64,000 bases of DNA, from assembly GCA_030390025.1 (NCBI GenBank), contig CM059427.1, positions 186,682,001-186,746,000 of the forward strand, read 5' to 3'. The translations under genes and the position numbers were made by a program. This stretch comes from Squalus acanthias (taxonomy: Eukaryota). Positions 1 to 63,660 of the stretch are shown here, one piece after another. The number at the start of each line of letters is the position of its first letter. Positions within the stretch are counted from its first letter, which is position 1. The notes beneath the pieces were generated by a model. It was not told the DNA's origin and searched no databases. It saw nothing but the letters and a program-made list of their open reading frames with translations.

Positions 1-1650
1 CAGGCGCTCCAAGAGGGTCTGGACGAACTTGTCCCTTTTCACCTCTTGGAGCTGACCCTCAGTGAGCACCGGCGCTAGTACATGGGTGGGGGTTCGCATG
101 ATCCTCCTAGTCATCACCTCATGCGGGGAATACCCGTACTTTTCGACTGACTGGCCCGGATCCCCATGAGGACTAAAGGCAGAACCTCCGCCCATTTTTG
201 GGGCGAGTTCATAGTCTCTTTCCTCAATTTCTCCTTCAGGGTCCGGTTCATGCGTTCAACAATCCCGGATGACTGGGGATTGTGCGCTACGTGCCACTTC
301 CCTTCAATGCCCAAAAGCATGAGGGTGTTCTGCATCAGCTGGCCAGTGAAATGACTCCCTTGGTCTGACTCCACGAAACGGGGGAGTCCCCACCACGAGA
401 ACACTTCCCGGACCAAGATTTTTGCAGTACCCAGCGCCGTAGCTGTTTTACAGGGGAAGGCTTCTACCCATTTGGAAAACACATCCACCAAGACAAGGCA
501 GTATTTGTAGCCTCCCTGGGTGGTGGGCAGGGTCCCGACGTAATCGATCTGTATCGACTGCCATGGTCCCTCCACCCTCCTGATGTGCCCCATGTGCACT
601 TTCCTTTTCTGGGGGTCTGGGTTGTTTGCAGCGCACACAAGACAGCTTGCACAGAACTCGCGGACCTGCTCGCTGAGTCCCGGCCACCATCCCGCCTGCT
701 CTACCCGTTGCCAGGTAACCTCGGGCCCGGGGTGCCCTGCCCCCGGCCCCTCATGAGCCAACTGGAGGAATTCCCTCCTGTGCTGCTGCGGCACAACCCA
801 CTGCTCCTCGCGGAACACCATGCCTTCTTTAACGGAGGGGGTTGCCGTACTGTACGGACCCTCTACCTGCTTGCCCTCAGCAATGGTTCTAAGAACTGCT
901 TTTAGGGCGGGATCCTGGTTCTGGACTGTCTTAAGGTCTAGGGGCAGTGCTACCCTGGTGTTCCCGGGATTCCCTTCCCTACCTTGGATCGCTGCCACGG
1001 GTCCGGGCCCATAGGGGTCCCAGAAAATGCCGTTACGGGCACCCTCCCTGGCTAGCGCATCCGCCTGCTGGTTGCCCTCCCCACGGGGCTCTGTGGAGGA
1101 GTCAGCCTTCACCTTATGGATGAAAATCTCCCCTTCCTCCCCTACTGCTGCTAGGATCTTTTCCAGCAAGGGCTTCAACGTTAAAGGTCGCCCGTCCGCG
1201 GAGGTGTATCCACGGCGGGACCAAATGGCCAGGTATTCCGTACACGAATTGCATGTGAACATACTGTCCGAACAAATCGTGTATGGGGTTGGGAAAATTT
1301 CTGGGTGGGTAACGACGTACGCCACCGCAGACAGCTCAGCCTGCTGCGCGCTCATGGTGCTGGGGAGCTTAATCGCCAGGGCAAGGTTTGCCGCAGGGTC
1401 ATAAACACCACACCCTGTGAGTCGTTCGCCAGCGGACACTGTGCTGGACCCATCAACATAAATCTCGCGACCTGTGGGATGTATCCCGGCCCGCAAACCT
1501 ATGTTGACCTTCCACACCCCTTCCACCGAACACTGGTGGGCTGTACCGGGGTATACCAAATTGGCCGCAAGCCTGGGCTCGCAAAGACCTTTAACTCTAA
1601 GATCAATCTGGGAAAGGAGAAGGGTTCAGCGCGCAATTCGAGCGCTGCTT
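1..1650 (-). pseudogene. pol: pol 3' part: RNase H and integrase (disrupted)
   Basis: ORF 114..1559 has RNase H motifs YVDGS, AQQAEL, SDS, GNQQADALA; zinc finger H..GH..CLVC; core QIDY, SDQG, IVERMN. A 1-nt frameshift near 133 shifts the frame, which then continues as YSPHEVMTRRIMRTP to the window edge. Confidence 0.92.
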
Positions 1651-3418
1651 ACGGTCCGGTCCCATCCTTAATCCTCCCATCTAGAAGCATCTTAGTTGAT
1701 GTGTGATGGGTGAGGAGAGTGATGGGAGAGAGACCTGTGAAGATCGCGGATCTTTTCACAGCCCAATGCGTGGCTAAAAGATGCCTTTCGCAATTGGAGA
1801 AACTCCTCTCCACATCCGTTAACACACTGGACGAATAGACAACCGGCCTAAGCTTGCCGTGACGCTCTTGGAGCAGCACAGCGCTCAAGCTGTCTCCACT
1901 GGCAGCTACCTCCAGGAAAAACCCCTTCCCCCCATCTATGGCCCCTAAAGCTGGCGCGGTCTGCAAATCCCTTTTTAACTTCTCGAAGGCGGCCTGGCAG
2001 CCCTCGTCCCAAGACCACTCCACTCCCTTATGGAGGAGTCGGAGCAGCGGAGCTGCTGTGGCTGCATAGTCTTCGATGAAGTCTCTGCAGTAACCGGTCA
2101 GTCCCAAAAAGGACCTCACACCCGTTATGGTGTTGGGAATCGGTAACTCTTGCACCGACTCCCTCCAAGCCTTATCTATGGCTCTTTCCCCAGCGCGAAT
2201 GGTCAGCCCCAGGAATTTTACTTCCTGCTGACCGATACGTGCTTTCTTAGAGTTAACTTTAAAACCCTTTCTCGCTAGCAGCTCCAATAACTCGGCCAGC
2301 AGTGGTCCATGCTCCTCCCTTGAGTCCGTAAATAGGAGCAAATCATCCACGTACTGCACTATCTGATTGGGCTGACTGAACTCCTTTAAACTCCCTGCCA
2401 TACACTGATGGAAAATACTGGGGCTGTTGTGGAAACCCTGTGGCAAACAGTTCCACGTGTACTGTTGTCCTTTGAAAGTAAAGGCAAACTTGTACTGGTC
2501 CTCTCGCCGCAGCGGGATGGACCAAAAACCGTTCGAGATATCCAGCACCGTGAACGTGGTCACGGATGCTGGGATACTCCCTATTAGGTCAGCAACTGCT
2601 GCTACCGTGGGCGCGCAGGCGGGGATGTTACTGTTAAGGACTCTGTAGTCCACCGTGGCCCTCCACGAATTATCCGGCTTCCTCACCGGCCATAATGGGG
2701 AGTTCACGTGTGTGGCTATCGGCCTCAACACGCCCTGCTGCACCAAGGAGGACATTGCTGTCTCCATATCGGGTTCTGCTTCTTTGGGGAAGTTATACTG
2801 CTTTTGGGGCCGGGTCATGGGGTCCCCGTCTACGCTGACCTCAAACCCGGTAACCCTCCCACAATCGTGTTTGTGGGTTGCAAACGCGTGCATATTATCT
2901 GACACGTACGTTTGCATGTCCGTTGGGACATCCGCGACCATAAGCCCGAGGTCGTAACCTCCGGATGGCTTCATGGTACACAGGGCCCCTTTACCTTCCT
3001 TCCCCGGAATCACAACTACCTTGCCTTTTCCACCCTTGGCTCCCCAGAGACAGTGATTCCTAAGGTCCACGAGGATCCTGTGCTCCGATAGGAGATCTGA
3101 TCCGAGGATACCTCTGCCACCCCCCTCTTGCCATTTCATCAGTATGCACTTCCACGTGGTGTGGAGTGCTCCTAGATGAATGGAGAGCGGAATGGAGAAC
3201 GCGCCAGCCTGCTCTTTTCCCGTGAACCCCGCTAATGTGTATGGGACCTTGGTAGACAGTGGTGAGTCAAAGGGGCTATCCGTATGAATCACGGTGCATG
3301 AAGCTCCCGTGTCCAACAAATAACTACCCTTCTGCTTCTCTACCTCCATCTCCACCAGGGGTCGTTTCCACGCATCATAGCTGAGCGGACACAGGTAGAC
3401 GGGCTGCGCGGGCTCTAG
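1649..3418 (-). pseudogene. pol: pol 5' part: aspartic protease, reverse transcriptase and RNase H-like tether
   Basis: In frame after the gag TGA. Motifs LLDTGASCTVI, GILGSDLL, NSPLWPVRKPD, LDISNGFW, LPQGFHNSP, YVDD. Broken near 1625-1660 by a GGACC 5-bp duplication and a TGG-to-TGA stop (ARW to AR*). Confidence 0.93.
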
Positions 3419-5203
3419 TCATTGGGTGCCGGTGGACGGGGCTGCGGCATCTGTGGGGCCGGTAGCGACTGCCACCCTTCCTTGCGAAATCATGAGGGTC
3501 CGCATGGCTCCCAACATTGATTCTATCGCATCGGGATGGATAGGCACACCAGCTCCCTTTTCAGAGACAGGCGCCTGGGTTCGGGCTGCGGGATTTTTAT
3601 CCCTGGACTCCTTCCAGGGGTTCCTGCAGTTCTTGCGCCAGTGCCCTGTCTTTCCGCACCCGTAACAAGCACCACTGGCTTGCGGGGCGCGATTACCCTC
3701 CTGATGCCACTCCTTTTGAGCCGGGGCTGCGGGCCGTGCCTCATGCACCTTTCCCTTAAGGGGACGCGCTCCCGTGCTCCTTGTGTTACGGTACCCTACC
3801 GTGAGTCGATTTAGGACCGACGCCTCAGTTGTGAGGGGGTTAGTGGGATCAAACCACGCTTTGGCCTGCTCCCTGACGGCTGGCAAACTGTTGGCTACTA
3901 AACATCTGAGCCAGTGAGTTAAACCGACACCGTCTATATCGGCGCGCTCTGGCGCACCTGGGCAGCTACGCTGATATACAGGCCACAGCCTGTCGGCGAA
4001 AACCTTCGGGGGTTCTCCCTCCATCTGCACTGTCTGTCCCAATCTAACGAACGGAACTTCATCGTCCGCCCCCAACACTTCCAGGACCTCGTCCCTTAAC
4101 TCCTCATAGGTATGATTTCCCCTTTTGCTCGCGTCTGAGAGACACTGTAGGATCGAGCTGTCTAATGAGAACAGCAGCATTTTTGCCTTTTCCACATCAT
4201 CACAGCCATTAATTGCTGCGGTCTGCTCTACCTCCCTGAAATGTACGGAAGGGTCGCCTGACTCAGCCAGCTTCCGTACGTGACTAATCATAGCCCTCAG
4301 CTGGTGTGAGCTGTGAGGCAACACAAGCTGGTTGAGGAGAGCCCCCTCTGCCCCATTTGCTCTGTTCGGGCCCCTCTTGTGGCCTGTGACCGGACACAAC
4401 GGTCCCGGCTTCGCCACTACCTCAGGGGGCTGTACTACCTCGGGGACCTCTTCCTCTACTTCTACCACTTCCTCCCTTACCCAGGTTGCCGAATAGCTGG
4501 GTGGCGCGGAGGGCACAGTGGCAAATACCTCCTCTGCTTTGTTTGGTAGGGATTTTTGGAATTCCCCACCCACATGCGGCTGGTGTGCTGATGGGCTGAT
4601 GAGGCACACCATGCCGTGTGCTTTATTCAGGGCCTCTCTAAGGTTCCGTATCTCTCTCTGGCAGATGCTGTGGTCGGCCCCCTCATGCTTATCTTCGAGG
4701 GCCATCTTATATGCCGCCCTAACTCCCTTCAAGCTTTCTTCTTGGGCTTTTATTTGAGCAGCTAGGCAGGCACACCGTTCCCTGATCCTACCCTCATTTA
4801 GCTTCGCCTCTGTGACCTGACACTCGAGGTAATCTAATTTAGCCTCATGGTGGTTGGCTACTAACTGGCGTTCCTGATGCAATGCATTCAAGGACGCGAT
4901 GAGCTGCTGCCCCCCCGCGACCTTTTCCTCCATCTCCACCTCCAAACCCCTGATCTGAGCTGCCTGTGCCACAATGACCTGGTCCGAAAGATTGACTTGC
5001 TTTTTATAGCACATCAGCCAGACCGCTTTCTCTACTGATTTTTTGTGTTCTTTACTGCCTGTCCATTTTATGGCTGCGTCTAGTGGACGCTTATCCATCA
5101 GCAGGTCACTTATCCATCTTTTGGTCAAATTAACCTTCCCAAATACATAATCGGCTATTCTCTCTTCCATAACATTTTGCCCATTCATACCAGGGTCTAA
5201 CAC
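3419..5203 (-). CDS. gag: Gag polyprotein: N-terminal coiled coil, capsid-like region, single CCHC zinc knuckle
   Basis: 594-aa open frame with CYGCGKTGHWRKNC, a heptad-rich N-terminal third and a PSAPPSY late-domain-like motif. The true start is probably the ATG at 5188 or 5170. Confidence 0.9.
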   Translation of the reverse strand: MLDPGMNGQNVMEERIADYVFGKVNLTKRWISDLLMDKRPLDAAIKWTGSKEHKKSVEKAVWLMCYKKQVNLSDQVIVAQAAQIRGLEVEMEEKVAGGQQLIASLNALHQERQLVANHHEAKLDYLECQVTEAKLNEGRIRERCACLAAQIKAQEESLKGVRAAYKMALEDKHEGADHSICQREIRNLREALNKAHGMVCLISPSAHQPHVGGEFQKSLPNKAEEVFATVPSAPPSYSATWVREEVVEVEEEVPEVVQPPEVVAKPGPLCPVTGHKRGPNRANGAEGALLNQLVLPHSSHQLRAMISHVRKLAESGDPSVHFREVEQTAAINGCDDVEKAKMLLFSLDSSILQCLSDASKRGNHTYEELRDEVLEVLGADDEVPFVRLGQTVQMEGEPPKVFADRLWPVYQRSCPGAPERADIDGVGLTHWLRCLVANSLPAVREQAKAWFDPTNPLTTEASVLNRLTVGYRNTRSTGARPLKGKVHEARPAAPAQKEWHQEGNRAPQASGACYGCGKTGHWRKNCRNPWKESRDKNPAARTQAPVSEKGAGVPIHPDAIESMLGAMRTLMISQGRVAVATGPTDAAAPSTGTQ

Positions 5204-5223
5204 ACTACTCTCTCGCTACCAGT

Positions 5224-5241
5224 GTCCCTTCGTGGTCGCCA
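5224..5241 (-). promoter_or_regulatory. Primer-binding site for tRNA-Arg
   Basis: The minus strand reads TGGCGACCACGAAGGGAC, 5 nt inside the LTR. From recall, this is complementary to the 3' 18 nt of vertebrate tRNA-Arg(TCG) (GTCCCTTCGTGGTCG-CCA). Confidence 0.85.
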
Positions 5242-5246
5242 TTTCC

Positions 5247-6962
5247 TGTAAGGGGTTTCCGTGCTTCTTCTAGGTGCTTATGCGGGTTTAGGCCTTATTG
5301 CTTGCTCTGGTCTCCAGCCAGCCTTGTAGCACTAGACACCTGTGAGTGGTTCGACCCACTCGCCCTTACGGTTCTGACAGTGGACTTAGGTGCGAGAGCA
5401 GTAATGCAGAGAAAACTCAGGTAGACCCGGTTGAATAGTACGAAATGGAAAACTTTATTGCATATTGTTCAAAATTACGAAATACATGTCATAAGCACAG
5501 ATGAATAACAGTACAAGCTTACATACATCTATAAAACTAGATTTAGGGAAACGAGGAGCGCACGACACATCGTAAAAGGGGACACACGTTATAATTATCC
5601 TTAATAAAAACCACCCTCCCCTATCAATGCCTGCTCTAATCTAGATCTGTAGGATCAAGAAACATGCTCACCACTCGTGATACCTCGGAGAATTCTAAAC
5701 CGGTGCTCGGTTGTTTTCGCTGCAGCACCTGACTATCCATGTGTTGACCAGGGGTCTCTGTACCCCACTTGTTTATTTGCTCTGCTCCGGCTAGCAGGCT
5801 GGATTGTCTGCTGTCATGAAGATCTGTGTTGACCTTGGACGCCCTGTAGAATTCGAAGAAGAGTCTTCCTGTACCCGACACCGGTTGTCGGTAGAATTCA
5901 AAGAAAAGTCTTCCTGTGCCCGTTCGTGCAGTAACCTATAGAGTTCAAAAATGGTCAATATATTTTCAGGCGCGGTCAGGGTTTACTGACCGTGGCGGCA
6001 CGTGGCGTCTTCTTCTTCTTCTTGTCTTGTCCTGTTTCGTCGGGCCTTCGGGTCCAGACACCGTTTACCGACCCTTGGGATGGTGCACCCGTTCACTGGC
6101 CTTTGTTGGGGCGGCTCGTCCTGTTTTGAGCTTCACCCAACATTCGATTACCGACCGGTACCGCTGGGATCAACGATGTCCAGCCCTTAGAAGAGCTCCA
6201 GCAGTCCGCAGCGGGTCTGAACAAGAGTCCGGAGAGAATCGAATCACTAGAAACCGAGCACCCGGAGGATCAGAGGAATCAGAGAATAAGAGCACTCGAT
6301 GAACAGCCAGAGGATAAGAGAAAGATGGACGTTTGTTCACTACAGTTATAGTGCTGTAATTTCTTATCTCCCGCCCAATCTTAATGTTCATCTTTTGTAA
6401 TATTTTGGCGCTCAAACTTCTTGTATGGGGTGATTCTTGTTGGTAATGGGTCTTGGTAACACTTGTAACTGGCTAAATACCCGTTAATGTTTCTCCCATT
6501 GTGGAACCGGCTAGGAGTCTCCCTGGCGGGGTTTTGGGGGCCTCCGAATTCTTGTGTAAGCACCCGAGAACGGCTCTCTCATTGTAGAGCTGTGGGGAAT
6601 TTGCGTATTGATGGCTTTGGATGGGCCTCTGATTGCCCAGTACAGTAGTCTCTTGCTTGTGCCTGGAAAACGCTTCCAGCACTTATATCTCTTGCTTTTG
6701 TGTCAAAGGCAGATCGATCGCGTCCTGTCTTTACCAATGTATGCTGAGTATTAACCGATCTTACTGAAATGTTTATTCGAACGCCATCTTGTCTGCCCAC
6801 TGAAAATTCTGGAAACTTCTGCCACGAGGCGCGGCGGCCATTTTACAGGCTTCTTGTATCCATTTTAAACATGACAGCATTTCGCTTAAATAAAGCAGTT
6901 TTAACGAATCTGTATCTCTCTCTCTCGTTATTTCGAAATCGTGATAATTTGCGAATTTTACA
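5247..6962 (-). repeat. 5' LTR of the provirus (about 1.7 kb)
   Basis: TG...CA termini, adjacent PBS, and colinear similarity along its length to 10984-12667. Minus-strand GC box (about 6370), TATAA (about 6347-6351) and AATAAA (about 5454-5459) are conserved in both copies. Confidence 0.9.
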
Positions 6963-7273
6963 AAAGTCTAGAACTAGGGGGCATAGTCTCAGGATAAGGG
7001 GTCAGCTTTATAAGACAGATGAGGAGCAATTTCTTCACTCAGAGGCTTGTGAATCTTTGGAATTCTCTACCCCAAAGGGCTGTGGATGCTGAGTTGTTGT
7101 TATATGCAAAGTTGAGATAGATAGATTTTTGGACTCTAAGGGAATCAAGGGATATGGGGATTGGACGTTAAAGTGCAGTTGAGGTCAAAGAACAGCCATG
7201 ATCTTATTGAATGGTGGAACAGACTCGAGTGGCCATATGGTCTATTCCTGCTACTAATTCTTAAGTTCTTAAG
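6963..7273 (+). mobile_element. CR1 LINE 3' fragment, adjacent to and probably interrupted by the provirus
   Basis: Encodes [12 protein letters not shown], followed by a CR1-type 3' UTR like those of the other copies in the window. Confidence 0.8.
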
Positions 7274-8453: not shown

Positions 8454-11400
8454 GTAAGTGCCTTATTTCCACCAATCACATTCATATTGTTTTACTTTAT
8501 CATAGTGTTTACTGAATTCACACACCTAGTATTCAGCAAGCAAGGAGGGCTTTATTTTCCTGTCCCTGCTCCTTTAAACAGGGGGTACAGTTTCTGCTTT
8601 GGGCACCATCGGCGATTCTGGCGTAACATTTTTTTCTCGAGTTTCCGTTCAAACTCATTTGCATATCGGCGAAAGCAAAATCTGCCCTGAAGCAGCGCAA
8701 TTGGGCAACATTTTAAAACGTCATTTTTTTTTTAAGTTGCTTTAAAAAGTATTCCTTGATATATTTAAGAGTGGTAACTCGGTGCAGTTTGCTTAATACA
8801 GCTGGAAATGGGTTTAACAAAAAATAAGCATTTTAAATCACAGTATCGAAGCCAGCTGTGAGTAATCCGATTTTAAATTATCAAAATTTGGGGAACTGTA
8901 GTGAGTTCCTTATAAAAAATCATCATTCAAAATCATTCAACAAGATACCTATTAGTGTCCTTATGCACAAAAGTTCCAGCTTATTTGTTGGAGCCTCCTC
9001 GAAGGCCTGCAAATGAGCACAATGAGTGGAAACTCCCAATGTTGATTAATTCATCCTGGGGGCGTGGCCAGGTTTGTGGGTGGGGCCAGCTTCCAGCACG
9101 ATGGTTTTAAAAGTAACGCAAAAGATCGCGGAAACTCTAGATCTGTTGAACGCAATTTCCGCTTAAAATTCTGCGATCTTTTGCACCGTTTACGCCGATA
9201 TCGGAGAAATCGTGCCGAAAAAAGCAGCGTGATCGAGCGGAAACACCAGGCCGCTGTGTAAGTTCACTTTTCAGAGTCCAACAGTGGAACAACTTAATAA
9301 AATGAAAAATGTTAGCAGATTTCTCATTGCTCTTCAATTCCTTTTCCCGATCTATCTATTAATCTCTCTATCTGTCGATACATCTACTCTTGCATGTAGC
9401 AAACTTCCATCAGAGCATTTTCTGTTTTCTATGATGTTATATTTGATCATTCAACAGCTTAACAGATTGCATGTGGTATAGAATGGGTCAAAAGTAATAA
9501 CAATATTAAAATGTTAATAAATGTTAAAATTAGGAATTATTGAAAATCACTTTTTGTGTTCGAGGCTGTGCAACATATAAAAGTTACAGTTGGGTAAAAC
9601 ATCATTTGAAAAGGTTTGAAGGTTTGTCGCTGATCCTCACTTCGGGTCACATCTTGGTTTAGTGTCCAAAGGTGTTTAAACATCACTGTGAATACAGTGT
9701 GCACAGAGCCATTGTGGTTTTGGTAATTGTGATGTGAGCTGCTATTTAATCAAGACTTACAAACACATGGGATTTACTGCTTTCGATCACTTCCCTTATG
9801 ACAATGTAGATAGAATAATGGTTACAATGAAGATTAGTTTAGTGTTACCCCTGAAATGAAGGAAGATAATGATTCAAAGGTGGAAATGTAGTCCAGGGAA
9901 TGATAACGATGAACTATTGACTGAATGATGTGACCACTGTCACCAGAGGCCACCTGGAAGTATCCAAATGCATTAACGTTAAATTTCACCATCACAACCA
10001 CAGTTGTCACCTTTCACAGATAAGGCAAAGCACCTGGTGGAAAGAGGCTGCAAGTCAGGTTCCAAGAGCTGGTTTATCTCTGTCACGGTGTCTTATCAGA
10101 CAAGGGGGGAGGATGCAGGAACTGGCTGATCGCTGCCCACCTCAGGAAACCCCATCAAAGGACAAACGGGGTGGAGACCCGACGTAACCGTATCCTGCAT
10201 CAATTTCACTCCCCGAGCTCCACCTTGATAATTCCCCCTGCAGACCAGGAGTCGGGAGGAGATTTGGAGCCTTTATTTTCTGTAACAAGAAATTTAGCCA
10301 TGACCTCTCTTTTTATTTTGATTACTTTTTGTAATAATAATGTATGTTACATAGAATTACAAAATATTTTACAGCACAGAAACATCTCCCTCATGTGCCT
10401 ATCTATGTTCAGAAAGCTCTGGTAATAGATACACAGAATATCTACTGGAAGTGCTGTGTTTTTCCCTGTAACCGTGCCTGCAGTGAAGGTGACATGATAT
10501 AATGCATTCTCCTCACGTATTAGTGCTAAATTATTGCCTTCTCTGGACTGAACTCCTCAATGAAGGATCTTCTTGGGATTGTAATGGGAGAGGATTTCAC
10601 TCTCCCTTCTTGCCCAATTTTGGATAGATTGTGGTCGGCAGCGGCAGAAAGTGGGGATGAGGATCCGGCGGGCTGCTCCCTGCAGATTGTCGTCACTTCA
10701 CTGAATATATGGACCCAAATATGGAGAGATTTATTCAAATTGTGTGGAGAGGGCAAGTGTTATCAGATGTTACATTCACCGTCATTACTGCCATAACAAT
10801 GCTGGAACATAAGGGACAGCAGCATGTTCCCGGAATCTAGTGTTGCGTTGGCTGGTGGGAGGGGATTTCAATTTCAAACATCTATCTGAAGCAAAGCAAT
10901 TGATCATGATCAAAGCAGTTTGATCCCTCCCTCTCCCACGAGTCCTGCTGGGAGCCCACAATAATTATCGAAATTATGCTGATTGTAAGGGTTTGCGTGC
11001 GTGTCTCTCAGCCTGTGAGATTCGCGCGGCTCTGTGCAGCCTGTATGTCAGTGCGGGTTTAGGCCTTGTTGCCTGTTCTGGTCTCCAGCCAGTCTGGGAA
11101 CACTAGACACACCTGTGAGTGGTTCGAATCACTCGCCCTTACGGTTCTAGACACTGGACTTAGATGCGAGAGCAGTAATGGAGATGAAACTCATGTAGAC
11201 TCGGTTGAATGGTACGAAATGGAAAAATCTTTATTGCATAATATTTAAGATTACGAAATACATGTCATAAGCACAGATTAATGACAGTACAATCTTACAC
11301 GCAGTTATGTAGCTAATTCTAGGGAAACGAGGAACGAACGACACACCGTAAATGGGGGCACACATTACAAGTATCCTTAATACTTAAACCCTCCCCTATC

Positions 11401-14400
11401 AATATCTGTCCTAGCTAGATTCGTAGGATTCGAGACTCATGCTCACCACTCGTGATAACTCGGAGAAATTCCGAATAGCTGATCGGATGTTTTCACCGCA
11501 GCACCCACGTGTCGATCAGGGGGTCTCCTGGCCCCACTTGTTTACTTGCTTCTGCTCCGGCTAGCAGGCTGGAACGTCTGTTGTTATGAAGATCTGTGTT
11601 GGTTGGTTTCACGTACCAGTCAACACTTAAGAGAATAATCTCTCAGTGTCCGTCATGAGGATCTGCCCTGATGGGTTTCACAGATCAGTCAATATCTCAA
11701 AGAAGAATCTTCCGGGGTCCATTCTTTAAAGTTCAAAGAAGTCTTCCTGGCAAGGAGAAATGTCTATTCGACCTACAGGCGCGGTCGGGGCTTACTGACC
11801 GTGGCGCTAAGTATGGTCTTCGTCTCTTCTCATCTCATCTCATCTCTTCTCGGGCCTTTGGTTCCGATGCCGGTTACCAACACAGGTCTTCCTGACACGA
11901 CACGAGGTAGATCCGAACGGATCACAAAGTTCAACAGTCTTTTAAAAGAGACACCAGGCAAGCAGGAACAAAACGGCGAGTCAAGAACACAGGAGCAGCC
12001 ACGAGGATGAACACCAGCAAGATAAGAGGATAAGAGAAAAATGGACGGTTTGGGACTTGCAATTATAGTGCAAAATCTTCCGTTTCCCGCCCAACCTTAA
12101 TGTCTTTTCTTTTGTTTGGGTTTGGCGCTCAAATGTCTTGTATAGGTGATCTCCGTTTTTAATGGGTTTCGGGGCTACTCGTAAATGTCTGAGTACCTGT
12201 TAATATTTCTCCCATTGTTAAATCGGTCGGTGTTCTCCCTGGAGGGGTTTTGGGGCTTCCAAGTGTTTTCTGTAACTACCCGCTAACGGCTCTCTCATCG
12301 TAGAGTCGTTGGGATTTTACATTTTAATGTCTTTGGATGGGCCCTTGATTACTTGGTACAATAGCCTTTATTCGTACCCGGGAGACCGATTTCAGTATCT
12401 ATGTGTATACTGCAAACCCATGATGTCTCGTGTATTATCTTCAATGTGCTGAATCTTAATCGATCTTGCACAAATGTTTATTGGAACGCCATCTTGTCTG
12501 TCTGTCGAAAAGTCTAGAATGTTCCGCCACGAGGTGCGGCGGCCATTTTACAGGCTGCTTGTGTCCACTTTGAAAACCTGACAGCATTCTGCTGAAATAA
12601 AGCTGTTTGAACGAAACTATGTGTTTTCTCCTTATTTATAAAATCGCGATATATTGCGAATTCTACATGATCTCAGGAGATTCCCCAGGGATCACGGTTT
12701 GGGAAGACAGACGGGCACGGAGTCTGTCACACTGACCTACAGGCAATTGGAAAATCCTGCCTCCCTTTGTTATCGGTAATCCTGTGGGTAGCCTGGTCAC
12801 TGGTGGTCCAGGAGAACCAACAATGTACTGGGCATTGCACAAGAGGAGGGGAGATCACTTGTAGAGATCGCTGACCTCATTTTTGAGCCTGAAGTGATAT
12901 GACTGCACCAGTACTGTATTTAGTTTTAGGAGAATACTGATTATTGTGACGGTATTTCAGGTTTCTTAACAATATGGGAGTAATGATTCCCCTTCCACAC
13001 TCCCAGTAAATGCTGGAAATACGTATTGTGAAATTGGACACTGCTGGCCCACGAGGTCAGAGTGCAGTGGCAGAAATTCACCCTCTAATGTCCTAAAGTA
13101 TCAGTGGATTAGGCCAGATTATTCCAGACAGTCAGCTCTTCACCGGGGTTTGTATGTGTCATTGCTTAATCCGTTGTATATAAAAAATATGACTGTAAAT
13201 AAATGAAGTCCAATATTAATCATTACAAACATGGGATTAAGTAGTTGTCATTTAAATATTTAAATATTTACATTGTTCCTCTTTCTAACAGGAAAACCAA
13301 ATCATATTTATTTTTTGGATAAGCGAGATGACTTTCAATTAAACGGACCAGACAATCCTGGGAATGGCCCTGTTGTCTGGGAATGGAAACCACACTCAGG
13401 GCAAGAAATCCAGCGGCTGGTTACTTTTCACAAAAGGAGTTCGGGCTGGTGGGACGCACAATGGAACTATCACTATAGAAACAGCGACTTGTACCGGAAT
13501 ATAGAATGGAATTATTGGTCCATTAATCTGAGAATTAGAAAACCCACATTTAATTTTGCGGGATCGTTCATCTTGACTCAAACACAGCCGAGTAATAAAA
13601 TCCTGAAACAGTATGAAATATTTGGGATCAAAGGTGAGTGGGACAAAGTCTAGAAAAGGAACAATAAAATGATTCTCCGTAAATAATTTCATGTGTAATG
13701 ATGAGAGATTGCCAGGATCACGTGAGATTTATATCACCCAGTGCAGAGAGCATCTCTCATTAAAATAACCAGGGGAAAGATTTTGTTCATTGTTTCTCCT
13801 GAAATGGTCAACATGAGTAAAAACATTTCGACAATTTCACCAGAAATAGCAAACCAAGTAATCTACCCCACAGAGAGTATTATGGTCTGTACACTGGCAC
13901 ACTCTCTGTCAGATGTACTGAATTTTGTTACCAACAATAGATCCCTTGTAGTAATGGGCCTCAGCGCGATGGGACAGGAATAAGATGGGACAGGAATAAG
14001 ATTGGCCAGAGTCACTGCTCCTGATTGCTATCCAGTGAACCTGTTAGATGTGTCACTTGGTTGAGGTCCCAGAGGATGTCAAGTGTCCCTGGAACTCGTA
14101 CTATGACAAGGAGTTAACACCTTCAGGAAAGCAAGAAGAACATGGCAGCGAAAAAGAAATACATTGGGGGGAATTTTAACCCCAAAAAATGGTTGGCTTG
14201 GGGTCGGGTGGGAGGTTACAGAGTTAAAAATCTGAATCCTGGCCCCAACTCGCCTCCAACCCGCCCACTTCTGGTTTTAACGGAGGTGGGACGGGGGTGG
14301 GCGGGGGCAGCTAACCTGCTCGCAGGAGGTGAGTTCGCACTTTTAATATTCTAATGGTGTTGGGTGCCTCATAGTGATCCACAATTTTAAATTTAACTGT

Positions 14401-17400: not shown

Positions 17401-20400
17401 TGGGGGAAGAAGAGGGGAAAAGCTGAAAGTGGAAATTTGGAGTAGAAGATGAGAATTTGCATTTGTGTGAAGTGTAGAAAAAAGACTCTGTTATTAAAAT
17501 AGCATCAAAACTATTGATGTGGATCAGTTTAAGGTCAGAACTACCTTACAGTAGATATTAAATAGTTACTGAAATAACACTGTTACACACAAAGTACAGG
17601 GAGCACAGAGACAGCATATGCTTTTACTACAGACTGGGACCTTATTTTCTCTTTGGAACATTGGTGTAAATATAACATTGCAATACAGTGGGCAAATATT
17701 CACAACCAGGTCTTGATGGATCTGACAATAAATAGCTAAAGGGTTGAAGGTGGACAGCAACATTCTCACATAGCTCATCAGTTACCAAAACACAGAGACA
17801 ATTCTTTTCTAAATATGGTTCACTTTATTCACTGCAAGGGCACAGCATTAAAGTCCATCCCTGAATATCTATTCAGTGCTCTTCCAATACACACACATAT
17901 GGCCAGAGATTTCCAGGGTGGTAGCGGGGGCGATTGGTGGCGGGTCGGGTGGGAAAGTTATTCATAGAATCATAGAAATTTACAGCACAGTATGAGGCCA
18001 TTCAGCCCATCTTCTCCGTGCCGGCTGACAAAGAGCTATCTACCCTAATCCCACTTTCCAGCACTTGGTCCGTAGCCTTGGAGGTTCCGGCACTTCAAGT
18101 GCATATTCAAGTACATTTTAAATGTGGTGAGGGTCTCTGCCTCTACCATCCTTTCAGGCAGTGAGTTCCAGACACCTACCACCCTCTAGGTGAAAAGAAT
18201 TCTCCACAAATCACCTCCAAACTTCCGACCAATTACTTTAAATCTATGCCCCCTGGTTATTGACCCTGCTGCTAAGGGGAATAGATCCTTCCTATCCACT
18301 CTATCTCGGCCTCTCATAATTTTATACACCTCAATTAGGTCTCCCCGCAGCCTCCTCTGTTCCATATAAACCAACCACAGCCTATCCAATCTTTCCTCAG
18401 AGCTAAAAATCCCCAGTCCAGGCAACATCCTCATAAATCTCCTCTGCACCCCCTCAAGTGCAATCACATCCTTCCTGTAATGTGGTGACCAGAACTGCAC
18501 AAAGTATGCTAGCTGCGATTTAACTAGTGTTTTAACAGTTTAAGCATAACCTCCCTGCTCTTATATTCTGTGCCTCGGCTAATAAAGGCAAGTATCCCGG
18601 AGGCCTTCTTAACAGCTTATTTACCTGTCCTGCTACCTTCAGGGAGCTGTGGACATGCACTCCAAGGTGCCTCTGATCTTCTGCACTTCTCAGTGTCCTA
18701 CCATTTATAATGTATTCCCTTGCCTTGTTAACCCTCCCCGAATGCTTTACCTCACACTTCTCCAGATTGCATTCCATTTGCCACTGTTTTGCCCACCTGA
18801 CCAGTCCATTGATATCTTTCTGCAGTCTGCAGCTTTCTTCTTCATTATCAACCACACGGCCAATTTTTGTATCATCTGCAAACTTCTTAATCATACTTCC
18901 TACATTCAAGTCCAAATCATTGCTATTTACCACAAAATACAAAGGACCGAGTACTGAGCCCTGCGGAACCCCACTGGAACCAGCCTTCCAGTGACAAAGA
19001 CACACTTCGACCATTACCCTAAAACGAGGCCCAGAACCATCCCCTCTCTTGTTGGGCTTGCTATGTACTGGCTACAAAAGTTCTCCTGAATGCATTTTAA
19101 GTATTCTGCTCCCTCTATGCCTTTCACACTAATTTTATCCCAGTTAATATTAAGGAAGTTGAATTCCCCTACTATTACTGCCTTATTTTTGCACGTCTCA
19201 GAAATTTGCCGACATATTTGCTCTTCTATCTCCCTCTGACTGTTGGGAGGTCTATAGTACACTCCCAGCAGTGTGATTGCCCCTTTTTTGTTTTTCAGTT
19301 CAACCCATATGGCTTCATTTGATGATCCTTCGAAGATATCCTCGCTCCTCACAGCTGTAATTGATTCTTTAATCAATATTGCGACTCCCCTCCTTTCTTA
19401 TCCCCATCTCTATCTCGTCTGAAAACCCTGTAACCAGGAATGTTGAGCTGCCATTCCTGCCCTTCTTTCAGCCATGTCTTATTTTTGGGATTGGTTTGGG
19501 AACCTGCTGTCATCCCGCCCCCATCGCCTTTCCCCCAGACGCCTCTGTCATCGCTGAGCCGACCCGACTGGTAGAAGCGGGCGGCCCAATTGAGATGATT
19601 AACAGTTAGTTGTCAGACCATTAACAGTCTTTTTTAACTTTGTTTGTAAATTTAACTGCACGGCCACGGCAACCACATTGCTCGGGAAGCACATCTGTCA
19701 ACCTGAGGCGGGAGTTCCACGGTCATTGTTCCAGCTGAATTCTTGACAGCATCTAATGTACAGTAAAAGCTCCCACCTGACAGATGATCACTTTCCTCAG
19801 GCATAAACTGTTGCTCAGTCCATTTCCAGCACAGATTCTGCAGGCTGCAAGTCTTTCCAGCAAAGTCTCCATCCAATCTCACCTTATTGGAAGAACTCTC
19901 TCACCACTGACAGAATGCTTCTGTTATCTGTACTTCACCTGCCATCTATTCCATCAACAGGGGTGCCATTTATACTGTCTCAACTTGGTCCTCAGAATTG
20001 GAACACGATAAGCCCCAACATCAGCAGCACCAGGCACACCAGCAGTACCAGCAGCAACACCAACCTCCTTCGCAATCACCTGATGGTGCACAGGACACCG
20101 GGCATCAGCACCTGACCACATTGCTGTCCGGGAGGCCAGGGATGGCCTCATCATGGCCAGATTTAGTTAGGTTTACGCTGTACACCTATATGGCTGCCAC
20201 ATGAGGCGCCAGGTTGGCACCACCCCACACCAATACCACAAAACATCCCTACAATGACCAAGCCATGATCGTATTGCATGGCGGAGCAGGCTCGAGGGGC
20301 CGTATGGCCTATTCCTGCTCATATTTCTTCTGTTGTTATCAGCCATTCATTTCACACTCATCACCATTGCGGGGGGTACCGTTATGTTTCACCATTCACT

Positions 20401-23400
20401 GCAACTCACTCAGTCACTTCCAAAGGTGCACACAAATCTGTTGAAGAAAGGAAAGTGTTGAAAATGAAGATTTTTATGTTTGACATCACACGAACAGAAA
20501 CTTTCCATAAACATTGGATAAAACACCCAAGTGGTTACCCTTGTGTGTTGTTAGTTGGTATGATTGCACTAGGATGAGGGTGAGTGTGAGGGGTGGCTAG
20601 TGAGATGGGGATGTAATAATGTAGATAGAGAGAGAAGGATGGGTGGAGGTGCAAAGTATGTTGGTGTGAGTGAGGATGTGCAGGAGTAGGTTAGGGAAGG
20701 CTGTGTGCTGGGGATGTGATGAGTGGCACAGCAGGATGAAGTTGAGTGTGGCTTTGTACTAACATTTCCTGATCTAATGAGATCATTGAAATGTTAGCGG
20801 CACTGCACCCAGGTCCGCCTGAACACATCCCTGCTTGTGACCTCCTCTGCAATCTGCAACCAGGCTGTTTTGGTCTGCTGGGGAGGTCATTTCTGCCCAT
20901 CGGAAGGGAAGAGGACCTCCCTGTGTGCTGTTATTCCCTCCATAAGCATATGGAGGGAGTCATCGGAGAACCTGGGTGCAGCCCTGCACCTCTGTGTAGT
21001 CAATGTCAGTGTTTGCAGCACCTCAATGCTGTAGTGCACTGTTAGCACTTTGTTAAAATCTAATGTGGCCGTGGTCCCTTTAAAGATCCCGGCTGATAAC
21101 GCGTCATGAATGATGTCACCAGACACGCTCCATTTAATTGGACCGGGTAACGTGCTGGGCGGGTTTAATAGGCCCCATTAATGTAAGTTTGTTTTCAGTA
21201 GCGGGATGGAGCTTGCAGTGGTGTCGCAACCCGTCATGGCCACCGCCCGCACCTGACCCGCCGAGGGAGGCAAAGTTTCGGCCATAGGGAACGATAATGA
21301 TTGACTTTGGTTGAACATCATTGGTAGTGCAAGAATTGTACCAGCAGTTATGGTGCTCTGCGATTGTTAACATCTGAGATCAATAGATTGGGAGTGGAGT
21401 GAGGGCGGATGGTTTTAATGTGGCCTGGTTCTGTACAGGTAACTGAATGGGGAACCACTTCACCAGCTGTCAAGAGGTAAGTGGGGCAGAGGAACAAGGC
21501 TACAGCCAATATTTGTTTCTCTTGTCTAGAATTGTCAAAGTAATTGAAGCAGTTCAACATTGAAAGGTAGAAAATCTGAATTGCGTAAGTTGTACCGGAG
21601 ATAAAACAAAAACGGCAAATGTTTTCAGTAACATAGCATCTTGAAGAAAGAAAGAAATACGCTTCACTGAGGAAGAATGAATTGGACATCAATCATCAGT
21701 GAGAATGTTAAGAGAAGAGACTGAAAGCTTGGTCAAAGAGATATGTTTTCATTGTGTGTGTGAAGACACAGCAAGAGGTGGAGGGGTTTAGGGAGGGAGT
21801 TCCAGAGGTTCGGGCTGAGGGAACAGAAGGTTTTGCCACCAATGGAGGGAGGGGACAGCAAGATGATGACAGGGAATGTAAAAGGAGAAATTCTGCCAGA
21901 ATTTACAGAGGTAAATTGGGGTGAGGCTGTGGAGTAATTTGTAGATGTTGGCAAGGATTTTATATTTGATGGGTTGAGGGACAGGGAGCCATTGAGGATG
22001 GGCGAGGAATATTTATCGTGGGAGAGAATTTTGTCAGGTAATTTAGACTTTGTGCGATGGAAGTCATCTTTGTGAGATATAAACATGCTGCCAATTTGCT
22101 GTTACCGATTTTACACTATCGCACAAAGGCAAATTACCCCCATGTTTCTGTGAGAAAGCATCAGGATTACTCCCTGGACAATAAGGAAAGGAATCCCAAC
22201 CTTCCAATTTGGTCAGCTTCCAAGCTGTATTGTAGCAGCAATTAAAATACTCTGGCCGCGATTTTCTCATTGGTGACGGGTTGGGTGCGGGTCAGGTGGT
22301 CGGCGGGTTCCGGTCCCGCCGGCGCTTTCAGCCGGTCAGAAATTGAAATTTTGCCTTAATTGGCCTATTGAGTCCCTGCGTGCGCGCTACCCGGCCCAAT
22401 TAGTGGTTTCAGGTCTGCTGCTCGCCTCTGCTGACGTCAGTCAGCCAGCTGCATTTAAGGGGCCCATGCAGCCTTGTTTCATTCTCATTCTTTGATGCTG
22501 GATTTCGGGTTGCCAACTGCTCCCATGACTGCTGCAAGAGCCAAGGCCTCACCCCGTTTTGATGATGACTCCCTCCATGCTCTTGTGGAGGGAGTGAGAG
22601 GGCGCAAGAAGGTACTCTTCCCATCCTCTGGACGGAGGAAGCCTCCTCAGCAAAGCAAAGCAGCCTGGCTGAAAATTGCTGAGGAGGTCAGCTCCAGATC
22701 GTTGTGTCCTCGATCCTGGGTCCAGTGCAGGAAAAGGTTTCATGACCTGGTACGCTCAGGAAAAGTGAGTATAGCATCACACTTACCCGCAATCTGCTCC
22801 CCATCTCCTCTCATCACCAGCGCTCTGCATTGTCAACCTACTCCTGCACATCCCAACTTACCCTTACATCCCTTGCACCCTTAACTATCCCTCTCTCTCT
22901 ATGTACAGAATCACTCCACTATTCGACTATGCTGCCCTCACACTCGATATCACTGTTATGCGATGCCAAAAACTAACAACGCACAGGGAGGGCCCTTGGT
23001 ATTGGCACCTCACTCCATCTTTGTCTCCTTCTAAGCATCTATGCTATGGATTCTCTACACTCACTCCATCATTCTCACTCAAACTCCACTTGTGTCCCTC
23101 ATTGCAGGAAAAGAGAGCCCACAATAAGAGGGAGAGGGCAAGGACAGGAGGAGGGCCACCATCCATTGCCCAGCTGACCAATGCTGAGGAGGTGGCATTC
23201 GAAATAATTGGAGTTGATGAGGATCTGGAAGTGGGGGACAGTCAAACGGGCGCAACAGAGCAAGCTGGTGACAGAATAGATTTGCATCTCTCTCATTTAC
23301 ATTGCATGAGTGACTGATATGACATCTGATGTTCATACAGATTGACTTATTATCATCTGCACAATTCCATGTGCTTGCTGCGTTAATATCACATGTCTAA

Positions 23401-26400
23401 CTCATGTCTTTACTCCCCCACAGGACCATCGAGAGCCCCCCTTCCCACTATCCAGGAAGTAGAGCCTGAAGAGCCTCAAGACTCCTCAGAGGAAGCTGCA
23501 ACCTCTGAGGCCGCAGTGTCAGCAGAATTAAGCGCACCCAGCACCAACGCAGATACGCACACCTCGGTGGCACCTTCGCAACATAGAGTAGTGTTGTCAC
23601 CAGGTGTATCACAGCTCACAATGAGCATCAGCAGATGAGCAGAGAAACCAGAGCTTCATGGAAGTCCTTTTGAGGAGGACTGCCAGTGCAGATAGGGGTC
23701 CTCATGGCCCCCCTGATGTGCAGCAAGGTGCTGTCCAGCCACTTGCTAGCACTGAAGTGGGGCTGACCCATGAGAGGGATGTTGGTGGCAGACAAGAAGG
23801 AAGTGTGGGCTCCTCTCCAAGCGCTCACTCTCCCATGCCACTGCCTAGCCGTCGGTCAGAGCCCCACCAGAGTCCTCACCCAACTGAGATGGGCGTCTCA
23901 GCCCCTGCACAGCCGCAGGAGGAGCAGACAGTTGCCCAGCCCTCACAGGCTCGCAACCCCAGAGGACGCCCGCCAAAGGTGTTGAAGCAGGAGCAGCATG
24001 AAAGTGAGCAAGGTGCCTCCACATCTACTGAAGCCACAGGTGAAGCACCACATAGAAGAACGCGTAAGAGGAAGATAAAGCACAATTAGTCACAAGAGTA
24101 GTCACTTGGGTGTTCTGTTCTGTTGTCTTTTGTTGTCTTTAATATTTTGCATTGTCCTTTTGTGCATTGATTAAACAAAAGTGATGGCAAACAGTTGAAG
24201 TTCTGGCCTATGTGATCTGGAAAATGGAAGTTGCACATTGAGGGCTCAGGGTGACTTGCATTTGTAATGATGGTGGTGAGAGTGATAGGAACCCACAGAT
24301 TCTTGTACATTGTGTATGGTGTGATAAGAAGGTGCCAGCCACATGTGTTTGATTCGTCTACCTAAGCGAATCTGGCAAAGACTAGTGCATCTCTTGCATC
24401 ACAGGCAGCAATGTGTTCACGTGCTGCTGCAGCTGGCTGATCCACCTCCGCAAGGTCTTCCTCCTCCTCCTCCTCCTCCTCCTCCTATGAGGTGGCTATG
24501 CGCTGAGCCACTTGTTCCTCAGGCAGCTGCAAGCCACGATGCTGTGTGATGTTGTGCAGTGTACAGCAGACTACGATGATTCTGGAGACCCTGGCTGCTG
24601 AGTACTGTAGGGCTCCACCTGATCTGTCAAGGCATCTGAATCGCATTTTGAGCAAGCCGATGGTTTGCTCAATGATGGCTCTGGTGGAAATGTGACTGGC
24701 ATTGTAGCGCTCTTCTGTTTCATTTGATGGCCTCCCCAATGGCATCATTAGCCATGTCTTCAGGGGATAGCCCTTGTCTCCAAGTAGCCATCCGGAAAGT
24801 TGGGTTGGCGGATTGAAGAGCGGAGGCACAATAGACTGCCGCAGGATGAACGAGTCATGGCAAATGCCAGGGTACTTTGCGCAAACATGCATAATGTCCT
24901 TTCTGTGGTTGCACACCAGCTGGACGTTAAGGGAGTGGAAGCCCTTGCAGTTGACAAAAACAGCTGAGTTGTGATGGGGTGCCCTAATGGCCACATGTGT
25001 GCAGTCTACGACACCCTGCACCCTTGGCAAGCCTGCCATATTTGCAAAGCCAACCGCACGCGCGGTTACACTTGCTTCATCCGTGGAGAAGTGGATGTAA
25101 TTGTGCGCCTTTCCAAAAAGGGCATCGGTTACCTGCGTGATGCAATTGTGTGCGGCCGACTGAGAGATGCCGCTGATGTCTGCTGATGAGCCCTGGAAGG
25201 ACCCAGAAGCAAAAAAATTGAGGGCAGTGGTGACTTTGACAGCCACTAATAAGGGGTGTCCACCAGGTGTTGGTGCAGCATTGAGCAGATGTCAGCGACA
25301 ACATCTCGCGAAAGTCTCAGACTCCTTTGGCACTGCTGCTCACTCATGTTGAGGAAGGTCATCCTCGGCCTGTAAACCCTGTGTTGGGGGTATCTCCTGC
25401 GGCGAGGTGCAGCCCTGCGCTGACGCCCTCTGCCCTGTGCAGCATCAGGTGGGTGAGGAGGAGGTTGGCGCTCCTGTTGTTGCTGCTGCTGTTTTGCCTG
25501 GTTCTGCTGCTGCCGCGGCTACTCTTTCTCCTAATCTGAGGACCAGGATGACAGGGTATAAATGGTTCCCATGCTGCTGGTAGATATGTCAGTTGAGGAA
25601 TAGAAGTTATAAGCGCTCAGTCAATTTGGGGAGAGGGTTTTCCCAGGAGGTCACAGTGGAGATGGATCTCAGCTTCACCACTTACAAGATCAGTAGATCT
25701 GCAAAAAGTTTTCCAAGACCTGAAAAACAAAGTTTTGTCATCTGTAAGTGAGCCTTGTTGCGAGCTCCGTTTTGATGCTGGAGCTGCAGCTGTCAAGAAG
25801 TCAGCCACTTGGTGAACCCGGCACAATCAGCTGGAGTGGTTTGGGAACGGCGTGGAACACGCAGAAAATGTGGAAAAATCGAAAACCGCTGTTAAAATAG
25901 GCTTATCCAGGCAGTTAACAAGCTTGGTGGTGGGACTGATCTGGACTCTGGGAGCCGGCATTTGGCAAAGTGGCGTGGATGCGGGTTGACGGCGGGATCG
26001 GACCCCGCCATCAATCAAAGCGATTTTACCCCCTGACTCACCTCCAAACCCACCCTCTGAGCGCCGGCAAAATCGCGGCCTCTGGGCTAGTCTTGCTGAG
26101 AAAATTTGAAGGCTTTAGCAGAAAGAGAGAAAAATAAAGAATGAGTACAGGTAAAAAATCTGTGAAAAATGTTAAATACAGAAGAGACAGATGTTCACTG
26201 TGAAAAAACTACAGGTTACCACCAACTGAAACAACAGCGACCTTGCTTTAAGGATTATGTTCAAGTGGGCCAGGCCCATGGAGCAGACGTGTGTCGATTT
26301 TACATGGGAGAGGTGAGCACTGGAGGCAGAATTTTGCCAAAACTCATGAAATTCAGCATGGGATCTTCTTTGAATAATTATTCCATGTAAATGAGGATTG

Positions 26401-63186: not shown

Positions 63187-63660
63187 TCACTGCTTGAATA
63201 TACTCAATGACTGAGCATCTACAGCCCTCTGGGATAGAGAATTCCAAAGATTCACTACCCTCTGAGTGAAGACATTTCTCCTCATCTCAGTTTGAGATGG
63301 CCGACCCCTTATTCTGAGACTGTGACCCCTGGTTCTAGACTCCCCAGCCAGGGGAAACATCCTCCCTGTAAGAATTTTGTATATTTCAATGAGATCACCT
63401 CTCATTCTTCTAAACTCCAGAGAATATAGGCCTAGTCTACTCAATCTCTTCCTCATCGGACAATCCCCCCTTCCCAGGAATCAGTCTGGTGAACCTTTAT
63501 TGTACTCCCTCTATGGCAAGTATATCCTTCCTTAGGTAAGGAGAGCAAAACTGTAAACAGTACTCCAGGTGTGGTCTCACCAAGGCCCTATATAATTGCA
63601 GTAAGATGTCTTTACTCTTATACTCGAATCCTTTTGTAATAAAGGCCAACATACCAGCAA
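63187..63660 (-). mobile_element. CR1 LINE RT 3' fragment
   Basis: [27 protein letters not shown]. Confidence 0.9.

What the first reader, a model, noticed from the sequence alone, without database searches (positions are those of the whole stretch)
1..6962. Basal retrovirus-like provirus (foamy/lokiretrovirus-like pol, CCHC gag, Arg PBS)
Seen: RT motifs LDISNGFW, LPQGFHNSP and YVDD; a degenerate RNase H tether followed by a second complete RNase H; coiled-coil plus CCHC gag; 1.7-kb LTR; only about 35-55 nt between PBS and the first gag ATGs. Known: LPQG and the tether plus RNase H arrangement are typical of retroviruses, whereas most Ty3/Gypsy elements have MPFGL and one RNase H; foamy Gag lacks CCHC and uses a Lys primer. 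Inference: a lokiretrovirus-like or other basal lineage. From recall, lokiretroviruses were described mainly from lampreys, bony fish, amphibians and reptiles, so a cartilaginous-fish host would be notable.
Basis: partly seen in the sequence, partly recalled or inferred. Interest (0 to 1): 0.75.

Follow-up and report, generated by a model that had tools for sequence, protein, structure and literature searches.

The report
Snakehead-related shark provirus, not lokiretrovirus
This is the front part of a broken endogenous retrovirus, likely in a shark or ray genome, whose reverse transcriptase falls among ordinary retroviruses and likely belongs to a known deep, snakehead-retrovirus-related branch already catalogued in skates, so it does not extend lokiretroviruses to cartilaginous fish.

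Summary
The anatomy is real: minus-strand 1,716-bp LTR, tRNA-Arg PBS, coiled-coil/CCHC gag, in-frame UGA, then PR-RT-tether-RNase H-IN. Pol has two frameshifts; the window ends inside integrase, so env and the 3' LTR are unseen. It is not a lokiretrovirus: RT+tether trees put it inside canonical retroviruses (100/100) with loki as a separate clade, and the AU test rejects joining them (p=3e-5). None of the 24 published loki RTs read has its LPQG motif (nearly all read PFGY), and loki have a far longer PR-RT spacer. Its RT is 87% identical (120/138, hand count) to little-skate Le_er_ERV4 of Xu et al. 2018; its Gag is 60% identical to a skate protein. Its nearest relatives match ERVs listed beside snakehead retrovirus in clade Huo, including elephant-shark Ca_mi_ERV1. 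Placement inside that deep region is unresolved: sister to SnRV or to foamy viruses is not rejected. 'Basal' is fair; 'loki' and 'new host group' are not. The scan reached similar SnRV-like verdicts on other DNA of this genome. Leftover leads: the lineage branches outside SnRV+foamy+class I in two trees; loki-like integrase; alphavirus-type UGA-CUA-G junction.

The parts
5247..6962 (-). 5' LTR, 1,716 bp, TGTAA...TTACA; TATA-like word at 5589-5593 and AATAAA at 5454-5459 suggest a U3 of about 1.4 kb (inferred)
   Evidence: U3 edge shared with the solo LTR
5224..5241 (-). Primer-binding site, 18 nt, tRNA-Arg type, 5 nt after the LTR
   Evidence: sequence; assignment from PMC11905727 passage; called Trp in PMC4724089
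5240..5242 (-). ATG overlapping the PBS, in frame with gag; this frame is interrupted by a stop eight codons on in this copy. The annotated skate Gag P0114 starts at the equivalent ATG
3419..5188 (-). gag: predicted coiled coil (about 4598-5053), predicted capsid (about 3782-4309), one CCHC knuckle (3626-3667)
3415..3421 (-). gag stop UGA followed by CUAG, in frame with pol: likely readthrough site
   Evidence: Gag ends at the same aligned Gln in 3 of 3 homologues; context compared with PMC13517186
3083..3370 (-). Protease (DTG at 3302-3316)
2009..2800 (-). Reverse transcriptase
1679..2011 (-). Tether (degenerate RNase H); first pol frameshift follows near 1650
1038..1466 (-). RNase H
1..794 (-). 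Integrase: HHCC 618-794, core 276-566; second frameshift near 130; runs off the window
10984..12667 (-). Related solo LTR, 80% identical (K2P 0.23), different U5 end, flanked by a 4-bp direct repeat
6963..7094 (.). Host flank: piece of a repeat also found at 57080-57206 (end of a CR1-type RT frame) and 63210-63341

Best explanation
It is a defective copy of a canonical endogenous retrovirus, likely of the snakehead-retrovirus-related clade Huo and likely from a multicopy family of sharks and skates. Inferred working cycle of the family: RNA starts in the LTR; Gag (coiled coil, capsid, zinc knuckle) would be made from an ATG at or just after the PBS; Gag-Pol would arise by readthrough of the UGA; tRNA-Arg would prime reverse transcription; integrase would insert the DNA, with a 4-bp target duplication seen at one related solo LTR. 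This copy cannot make RNase H or integrase in frame with RT (two frameshifts, shown) and would depend on other copies. Whether it carries env is unknown.
For: RT+tether trees: inside canonical retroviruses at 100/100 (LG+G4, 69 rows) and 100/99 (C20 mixture, 42 rows), loki and Gypsy separate. RT identity: 51-52% to amphibian, coelacanth and fish relatives, 42% to SnRV, 32-38% to loki, 32-35% to foamy, 29-34% to Gypsy. 120/138 identical to Le_er_ERV4 (hand count). Ca_mi_ERV1 shares ATHKHDCGR, LDISNGFWSIPL, LPQGFHNSP and YVDD. By-eye matches of P0005 (Na_pa_ERV7) and P0006 (Si_gr_ERV3, An_ro_ERV1) are tips printed beside SnRV in the block labelled clade Huo. SnRV (L001) has the same layout: coiled-coil-type Pfam hits and CCHC in Gag, an in-frame stop before pol, PR-to-YxDD distance 315 against 322 residues. 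Gag 60% identical to a Rhinoraja longicauda protein. In 4 of 4 runs laid, 1,514 to 29,889 contigs, mostly 90-99% alike, cover 30 of 30 bins.
Against: No tree here makes it sister to SnRV; the RT-only tree puts SnRV in another branch (96 SH-aLRT). Monophyly of a broad SnRV-like group is only 'not rejected' (p=0.106). Gag has almost no pairwise likeness to SnRV Gag beyond the knuckle (28 bits). Its integrase scores 174-180 bits against four loki integrases and 109 against SnRV. Le_er_ERV4 is not among the tip labels I could read, and the figure text gives tip order, not topology. ERV-L, class II other than delta, fish foamy-like ERVs and Odin were not in my trees. Host, readthrough and start codon are inferred.
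Confidence: 0.82

Rival explanations
1. It represents a grade that branches below SnRV, foamy viruses and class I retroviruses, i.e. among the deepest canonical retroviruses, so clade Huo would be paraphyletic.
For: A branch holding SnRV, foamy and class I but not this lineage has 96/97 support under C20 and 89/93 under LG+G4. Loki integrases nest weakly (86/63, 91/77) among its relatives. Gag's nearest Atlas clusters are Ty3/retrotransposon Gags (0.90-0.93); PEG10 CA aligns at Z 8.6.
Against: AU tests reject neither the broad SnRV-like clade (p=0.106) nor canonical-integrase monophyly (p=0.35). Foamy and SnRV are long branches. The RT-only tree leaves the base open. Xu et al. report five strongly supported clades (passages). 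The Gag model is of low confidence; Foldseek's top rows are MLV capsid at E 0.25.
Confidence: 0.12
2. It is a foamy-related (clade Tu) ERV.
For: AU test does not reject it with six exogenous foamy RTs (p=0.12). Coiled-coil Gag N-terminus.
Against: CCHC knuckle, Arg PBS and gag-pol in one frame; foamy viruses lack the knuckle, use Lys and make Pol apart from Gag (recalled). Foamy rows form their own clade (100/100). The three fish foamy-like RTs read have NSPIQAV and LPQG[FY][KR]NSP, not NSPLWPV and LPQGFHNSP.
Confidence: 0.04
3. It is a lokiretrovirus (or Odin-like element) in a cartilaginous fish.
For: Dual RNase H; coiled-coil Gag as in BHIKHARI (passages); integrase closer to loki than to SnRV; 0 of 6 chondrichthyan genomes are marked loki-positive in Wang & Han's table, so it would have been new.
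Against: AU p=3e-5; no LPQG in 24 of 24 loki RTs; PR-to-YxDD distance 322 against 714 in both loki Pols measured; RNase H tree keeps loki as a clade of 5 (99/99) without it.
Confidence: 0.02

Closest known systems
Le_er_ERV4, little skate (Xu et al. 2018, PMC6001957, supplementary file 7)
   Same: RT fragment 120/138 identical (hand count): same family or a very close one.
   Different: Only a 138-residue fragment was seen there; no LTR, PBS or gag description was seen; its clade is not readable from the figure text.
CmiERV lineage I / Ca_mi_ERV1, elephant shark (Han 2015, PMC4422223; Xu 2018)
   Same: Chondrichthyan ERV reported to cluster with SnRV; shares the pre-RT KHDCG motif and three RT motifs.
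   Different: A different family: many RT differences by eye; its printed sequence starts with another LTR.
Snakehead retrovirus (SnRV; L001, identified by its RT matching the SnRV row)
   Same: LDISNGFW/LPQGF/YVDD RT, tether plus RNase H, CCHC Gag, gag-stop-pol in one frame, similar PR-RT spacing; Arg primer (recalled for SnRV).
   Different: RT only 42% identical; UAG-GGC against UGA-CUA junction; other PBS sequence; longer leader; integrase distant; not sisters in my trees.
Amphibian, coelacanth and fish ERV Pols annotated 'NYNRIN-like' or 'GIN1-like' (P0002-P0007)
   Same: Nearest non-chondrichthyan relatives, 44-47% over PR-RT-tether.
   Different: Separate lineages; RT branch of about 0.56 substitutions per site leads to this family.
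Lokiretroviruses (Wang & Han 2020, PMC7947760; L050-L052)
   Same: Dual RNase H, coiled-coil Gag, related integrase.
   Different: PFGY-type RT, separate clade, about 400 more residues between PR and RT, no zf-CCHC hit in the one loki Gag frame scanned.

Membership tests
Lokiretrovirus | RT groups in the loki clade, sister to canonical retroviruses | tested here: not met
   AU p=3e-5
Lokiretrovirus | PFGY-type RT motif (seen in the published alignment; not stated there as defining) | tested here: not met
   LPQGF here; no LPQG in 24 of 24 loki rows
Lokiretrovirus | Tether plus RNase H | tested here: met
   shared with all retroviruses and Odin, so not diagnostic
Lokiretrovirus | Mononegavirales-F-like Env | not testable with these tools
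   window ends in integrase; no genome held
Lokiretrovirus | CGIN1/NYNRIN-related integrase | tested here: inconclusive
   weak nesting of loki IN among its relatives; AU p=0.35; NYNRIN itself not in the tree
Clade Huo (SnRV-related, class III) ERVs | RT inside canonical Retroviridae, outside class I and delta/class II | tested here: met
Clade Huo (SnRV-related, class III) ERVs | Nearest relatives are published Huo members | tested here: met
   by-eye matches to Na_pa_ERV7, An_ro_ERV1, Si_gr_ERV3, La_ch_ERV4, Ca_mi_ERV1; tip order only
Clade Huo (SnRV-related, class III) ERVs | Monophyly with SnRV | tested here: inconclusive
   not recovered; AU p=0.19 (sister) and 0.106 (broad clade)
Clade Huo (SnRV-related, class III) ERVs | env gene and 3' LTR | not testable with these tools
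   outside the window
Foamy viruses / clade Tu | No Gag zinc knuckle, Lys primer, Pol made apart from Gag (recalled) | tested here: not met
   CCHC, Arg PBS, gag-pol in frame
Foamy viruses / clade Tu | RT groups with foamy viruses | tested here: inconclusive
   not recovered, not rejected (p=0.12); fish foamy-like rows absent from trees
Ty3/Gypsy (Metaviridae) | RT in Metaviridae with a single RNase H | tested here: not met
   dual RNase H; 12 Gypsy rows form a clade without it, 100/100
Odin retrotransposons | RT sister to loki; no env | not tested
   no Odin sequence at hand; published as sister to loki (passages), which this RT is not

The most novel reading that the evidence does not exclude
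This shark/skate family and its amphibian, coelacanth and eel relatives are the deepest-branching canonical retroviruses, below foamy viruses and SnRV. They would keep a Ty3-like capsid, a zinc knuckle and the integrase type shared with lokiretroviruses and NYNRIN, so that integrase would be ancestral rather than a loki-specific replacement.
Probability: 0.12. Interest if true: 0.7.

Novelty: new member of a known kind. Interest (0 to 1): 0.24.

Why it matters
As it stands, it adds LTR, PBS and gag anatomy to a family so far seen here only as a short skate RT fragment, and it removes one candidate for 'lokiretroviruses in cartilaginous fish'. It would matter more if the deep placement held, because the order of the first retroviral splits and the origin of retroviral integrases rest on very few class III references. 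The UGA-CUA-G junction is not among the retroviral contexts in the passages read of a 2026 review and is simple to assay.

Tried and rejected
No whole genome is held, so no env, 3' LTR, target duplication, LTR dating or copy count for this insertion. Viral contigs: nothing for the RH-IN frame or for the loki motif. P0003 carries a signal-peptide/Ig-like tail after Pol; a search with that tail returned only P0003 (1 of 508 candidates), so the Env of this lineage stays unknown. SnRV Env gave no PF00523 hit at E 0.1; a partial loki Env gave E 0.072. No stable RNA structure behind the gag stop (z 0.09; pseudoknots not modelled). The PBS could not be typed from the collections: 20 of 26 loci matched bacterial tRNA-Asp 3' ends, irrelevant to this host. 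No tRNA or Rfam hit in the window. The capsid-only model failed (pLDDT 40); Foldseek on the Gag model gave nothing at E 0.001. RNase H tree unresolved; 12 of 51 hit rows were dropped (score under 20 or half coverage), among them 4 foamy rows; 5 of 58 were dropped from the IN tree. No RNA holder is listed; X11 is only guessed to be RNA. Four sequence or relatives look-ups in earlier findings returned nothing, so I cannot say whether earlier SnRV-like notes concern this same family. Host V-set exons did not name the host. PMC9447858 had none of the terms sought on NYNRIN's viral origin.
Full report
Observation. The element lies on the minus strand from 6962 to the window's left edge. In order: LTR 5247-6962; 5-nt spacer; PBS 5224-5241; gag frame 3419-5215; UGA 3419-3421; PR-RT-tether frame 1652-3418; RNase H-integrase frame 117-1625; integrase tail in a third frame to base 1. 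Pfam supports each domain. tblastn with P0001, an unbroken relative 84% identical, shows pol changing frame near 1650 and near 130. The LTR's U3 edge coincides with that of a related solo LTR at 10984-12667, 80% identical and flanked by a 4-bp repeat. The PBS 18-mer is tRNA-Arg according to a passage of PMC11905727 citing GtRNAdb; a passage of PMC4724089 called it Trp. No genome is held: env, 3' LTR and age could not be examined.

Relatives. The best Pol hits are one unnamed protein (P0001) and frog, coelacanth and unnamed Pols at 44-47%, several annotated 'NYNRIN-like' (97 hits among 7,999 candidates scored). Gag has 2 hits among 7,991 candidates: a Rhinoraja longicauda (skate) protein at 60% and an unnamed one at 47%. 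Twenty runs from eight coded organisms and one uncoded run hold part of the stretch, none over half of the sampled words. In the 4 runs laid, thousands of contigs cover all 30 bins; this shows a multicopy family but gives no copy number. The host is inferred to be chondrichthyan from these relatives, not from a host gene.

Not a lokiretrovirus. I read the main text (parts 1-3 of 4) and parts of the supplement of PMC7947760. But none of the 24 loki RT rows has LPQG, and LDISNGFW occurs only in SnRV. References came from the tools: SnRV (L001), foamy, gamma, epsilon and delta records (group labels from motifs matching the rows and from my own knowledge), and loki contigs with PFGY and an F-like env start (L050-L052). 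In the RT tree (102 rows), the RT+tether tree (69 rows) and the C20 tree (42 rows) the element is inside canonical retroviruses and loki is a separate clade. Rows were chosen by me from 277 RT segments. Holding it with loki costs 74.7 log-likelihood units, AU p=3e-5. PR-to-YxDD distance is 322 residues here, 310-322 in SnRV, MLV-type and near relatives, 714 in two loki Pols.

What it is. Han 2015 (PMC4422223, part 1 of 2 read) reports elephant-shark lineage I ERVs clustering with SnRV. Xu et al. 2018 (PMC6001957, passages and supplements 2, 6, 7 searched or read) define clade Huo as SnRV-related and present in all major vertebrate lineages. Their supplement holds Le_er_ERV4 from the little skate, 120 of 138 residues identical to this RT by my hand count, and Ca_mi_ERV1, La_ch_ERV4, Na_pa_ERV7, An_ro_ERV1 and Si_gr_ERV3, which share the KHDCG and RT motifs or match my nearest rows by eye. 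Those names are printed next to SnRV in the block labelled clade Huo; Le_er_ERV4 is not among the labels I could read, and the text gives no topology. The gene layout agrees with SnRV: knuckle, in-frame stop, Arg-type primer (recalled for SnRV).

Results against this reading. No tree joins it to SnRV. Sister to SnRV (p=0.19), sister to foamy (p=0.12) and a broad SnRV-like clade (p=0.106) are all merely not rejected. Two trees put SnRV, foamy and class I together without this lineage (89/93 and 96/97). Its integrase scores higher against loki than against SnRV, and loki integrases nest weakly among its relatives, though canonical-IN monophyly is not rejected. Gag looks Ty3-like to the Atlas; the structure model is poor and splits between MLV, PNMA2 and PEG10 capsids. 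These points form the novel case, which needs ERV-L, class II, fish foamy-like, Odin and NYNRIN rows that I did not have.

Mechanism. Shown: layout, motifs, breaks. Inferred: Gag-Pol by readthrough, since Gag ends at the same aligned residue in 3 of 3 homologues and pol follows in frame. The UGA-CUA context is the type II motif listed for Sindbis and related viruses; the retroviral contexts in the passages read of PMC13517186 are UAGGGA, UAGGAU, UGAAGA, UGACGA, UGAAGU and UAGGGC. No downstream stem-loop stands out. The skate Gag is annotated from an ATG that overlaps the PBS; this copy has that ATG, but the frame is interrupted, so its Gag would start 35 or 53 nt after the PBS. Arg priming and a 4-bp duplication (one solo LTR) are inferred.

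Literature limits. Searches: 'lokiretrovirus' (15 papers), loki+retrovir+cartilaginous (4), snakehead+endogenous+shark (6), foamy-like+cartilaginous fish (10), clade Huo (2). I saw no description of this family's LTR, PBS or gag, but most were seen as listings only, subscription papers and Repbase are not covered, and supplement cells are cut at 400 characters. Passages only: PMC9040795, PMC12440569, PMC10435555, PMC4299795, PMC10699275, PMC4131045, PMC12287698, PMC9447858, bioRxiv 2024.03.25.586437 (its supplements not seen).

Earlier scan notes. Notes on other pieces of this genome reached SnRV-like, not-loki verdicts (e1-8042254, e1-7789907, e1-7806250) and described an Arg PBS overlapping a gag-frame ATG (e1-7806816). 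They are unchecked leads; whether they concern this family is unknown.

Verdict. Observation confirmed; interpretation partly supported; new member of a known kind; interest 0.24.

Noticed in passing
window 10984-12667: Solo LTR of a related subfamily, same orientation, 80% identical, different U5 end, 4-bp flanking repeat.
   Followed up: yes
window 26748-27299 and 38211-38660 (+): Frames holding divergent Ig V-set exons (Pfam V-set E 0.02; Atlas rows V-set, CD200R, CD4-like at 0.93-0.95): probably a host immune-receptor gene; recall suggests CD4/LAG3-like, untested.
   Followed up: partly
window 43200-48230: About 5 kb tandem array of 12-nt units, strongly CT-rich, with open frames on both strands, just before a CR1-type LINE.
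   Followed up: no
window 48229-51954 (+), 56989-58446 (-), 18031-19479, 39081-42642: CR1-type LINE copies; the first has a GDSL-esterase ORF1 (Pfam E 1.7e-10) and RT.
   Followed up: partly
window 20500-25600 and 34000-37550: Harbinger-type DNA transposon copies in opposite orientation (DDE_Tnp_4 E 5.6e-37; Myb/SANT E 4.3e-7).
   Followed up: partly
P0003 residues 1190-1331 (Pyxicephalus adspersus): A close amphibian relative's annotated Pol runs into a signal-peptide-like stretch and an Ig-like domain (Ig_3 E 0.012), possibly the head of its Env; echoes earlier notes on Ig-headed F-like Envs in this genome.
   Followed up: partly
L050-L052: Lokiretrovirus proviruses in contigs of the metagenome collection: gag, in-frame stop, pol with a long PR-RT insert, F-like env start.
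   Followed up: partly
window 1-6962: CpG observed/expected is 0.63-0.68 in the coding part and 0.85 in the LTR, against 0.43-0.50 in flanks: little CpG decay.
   Followed up: no
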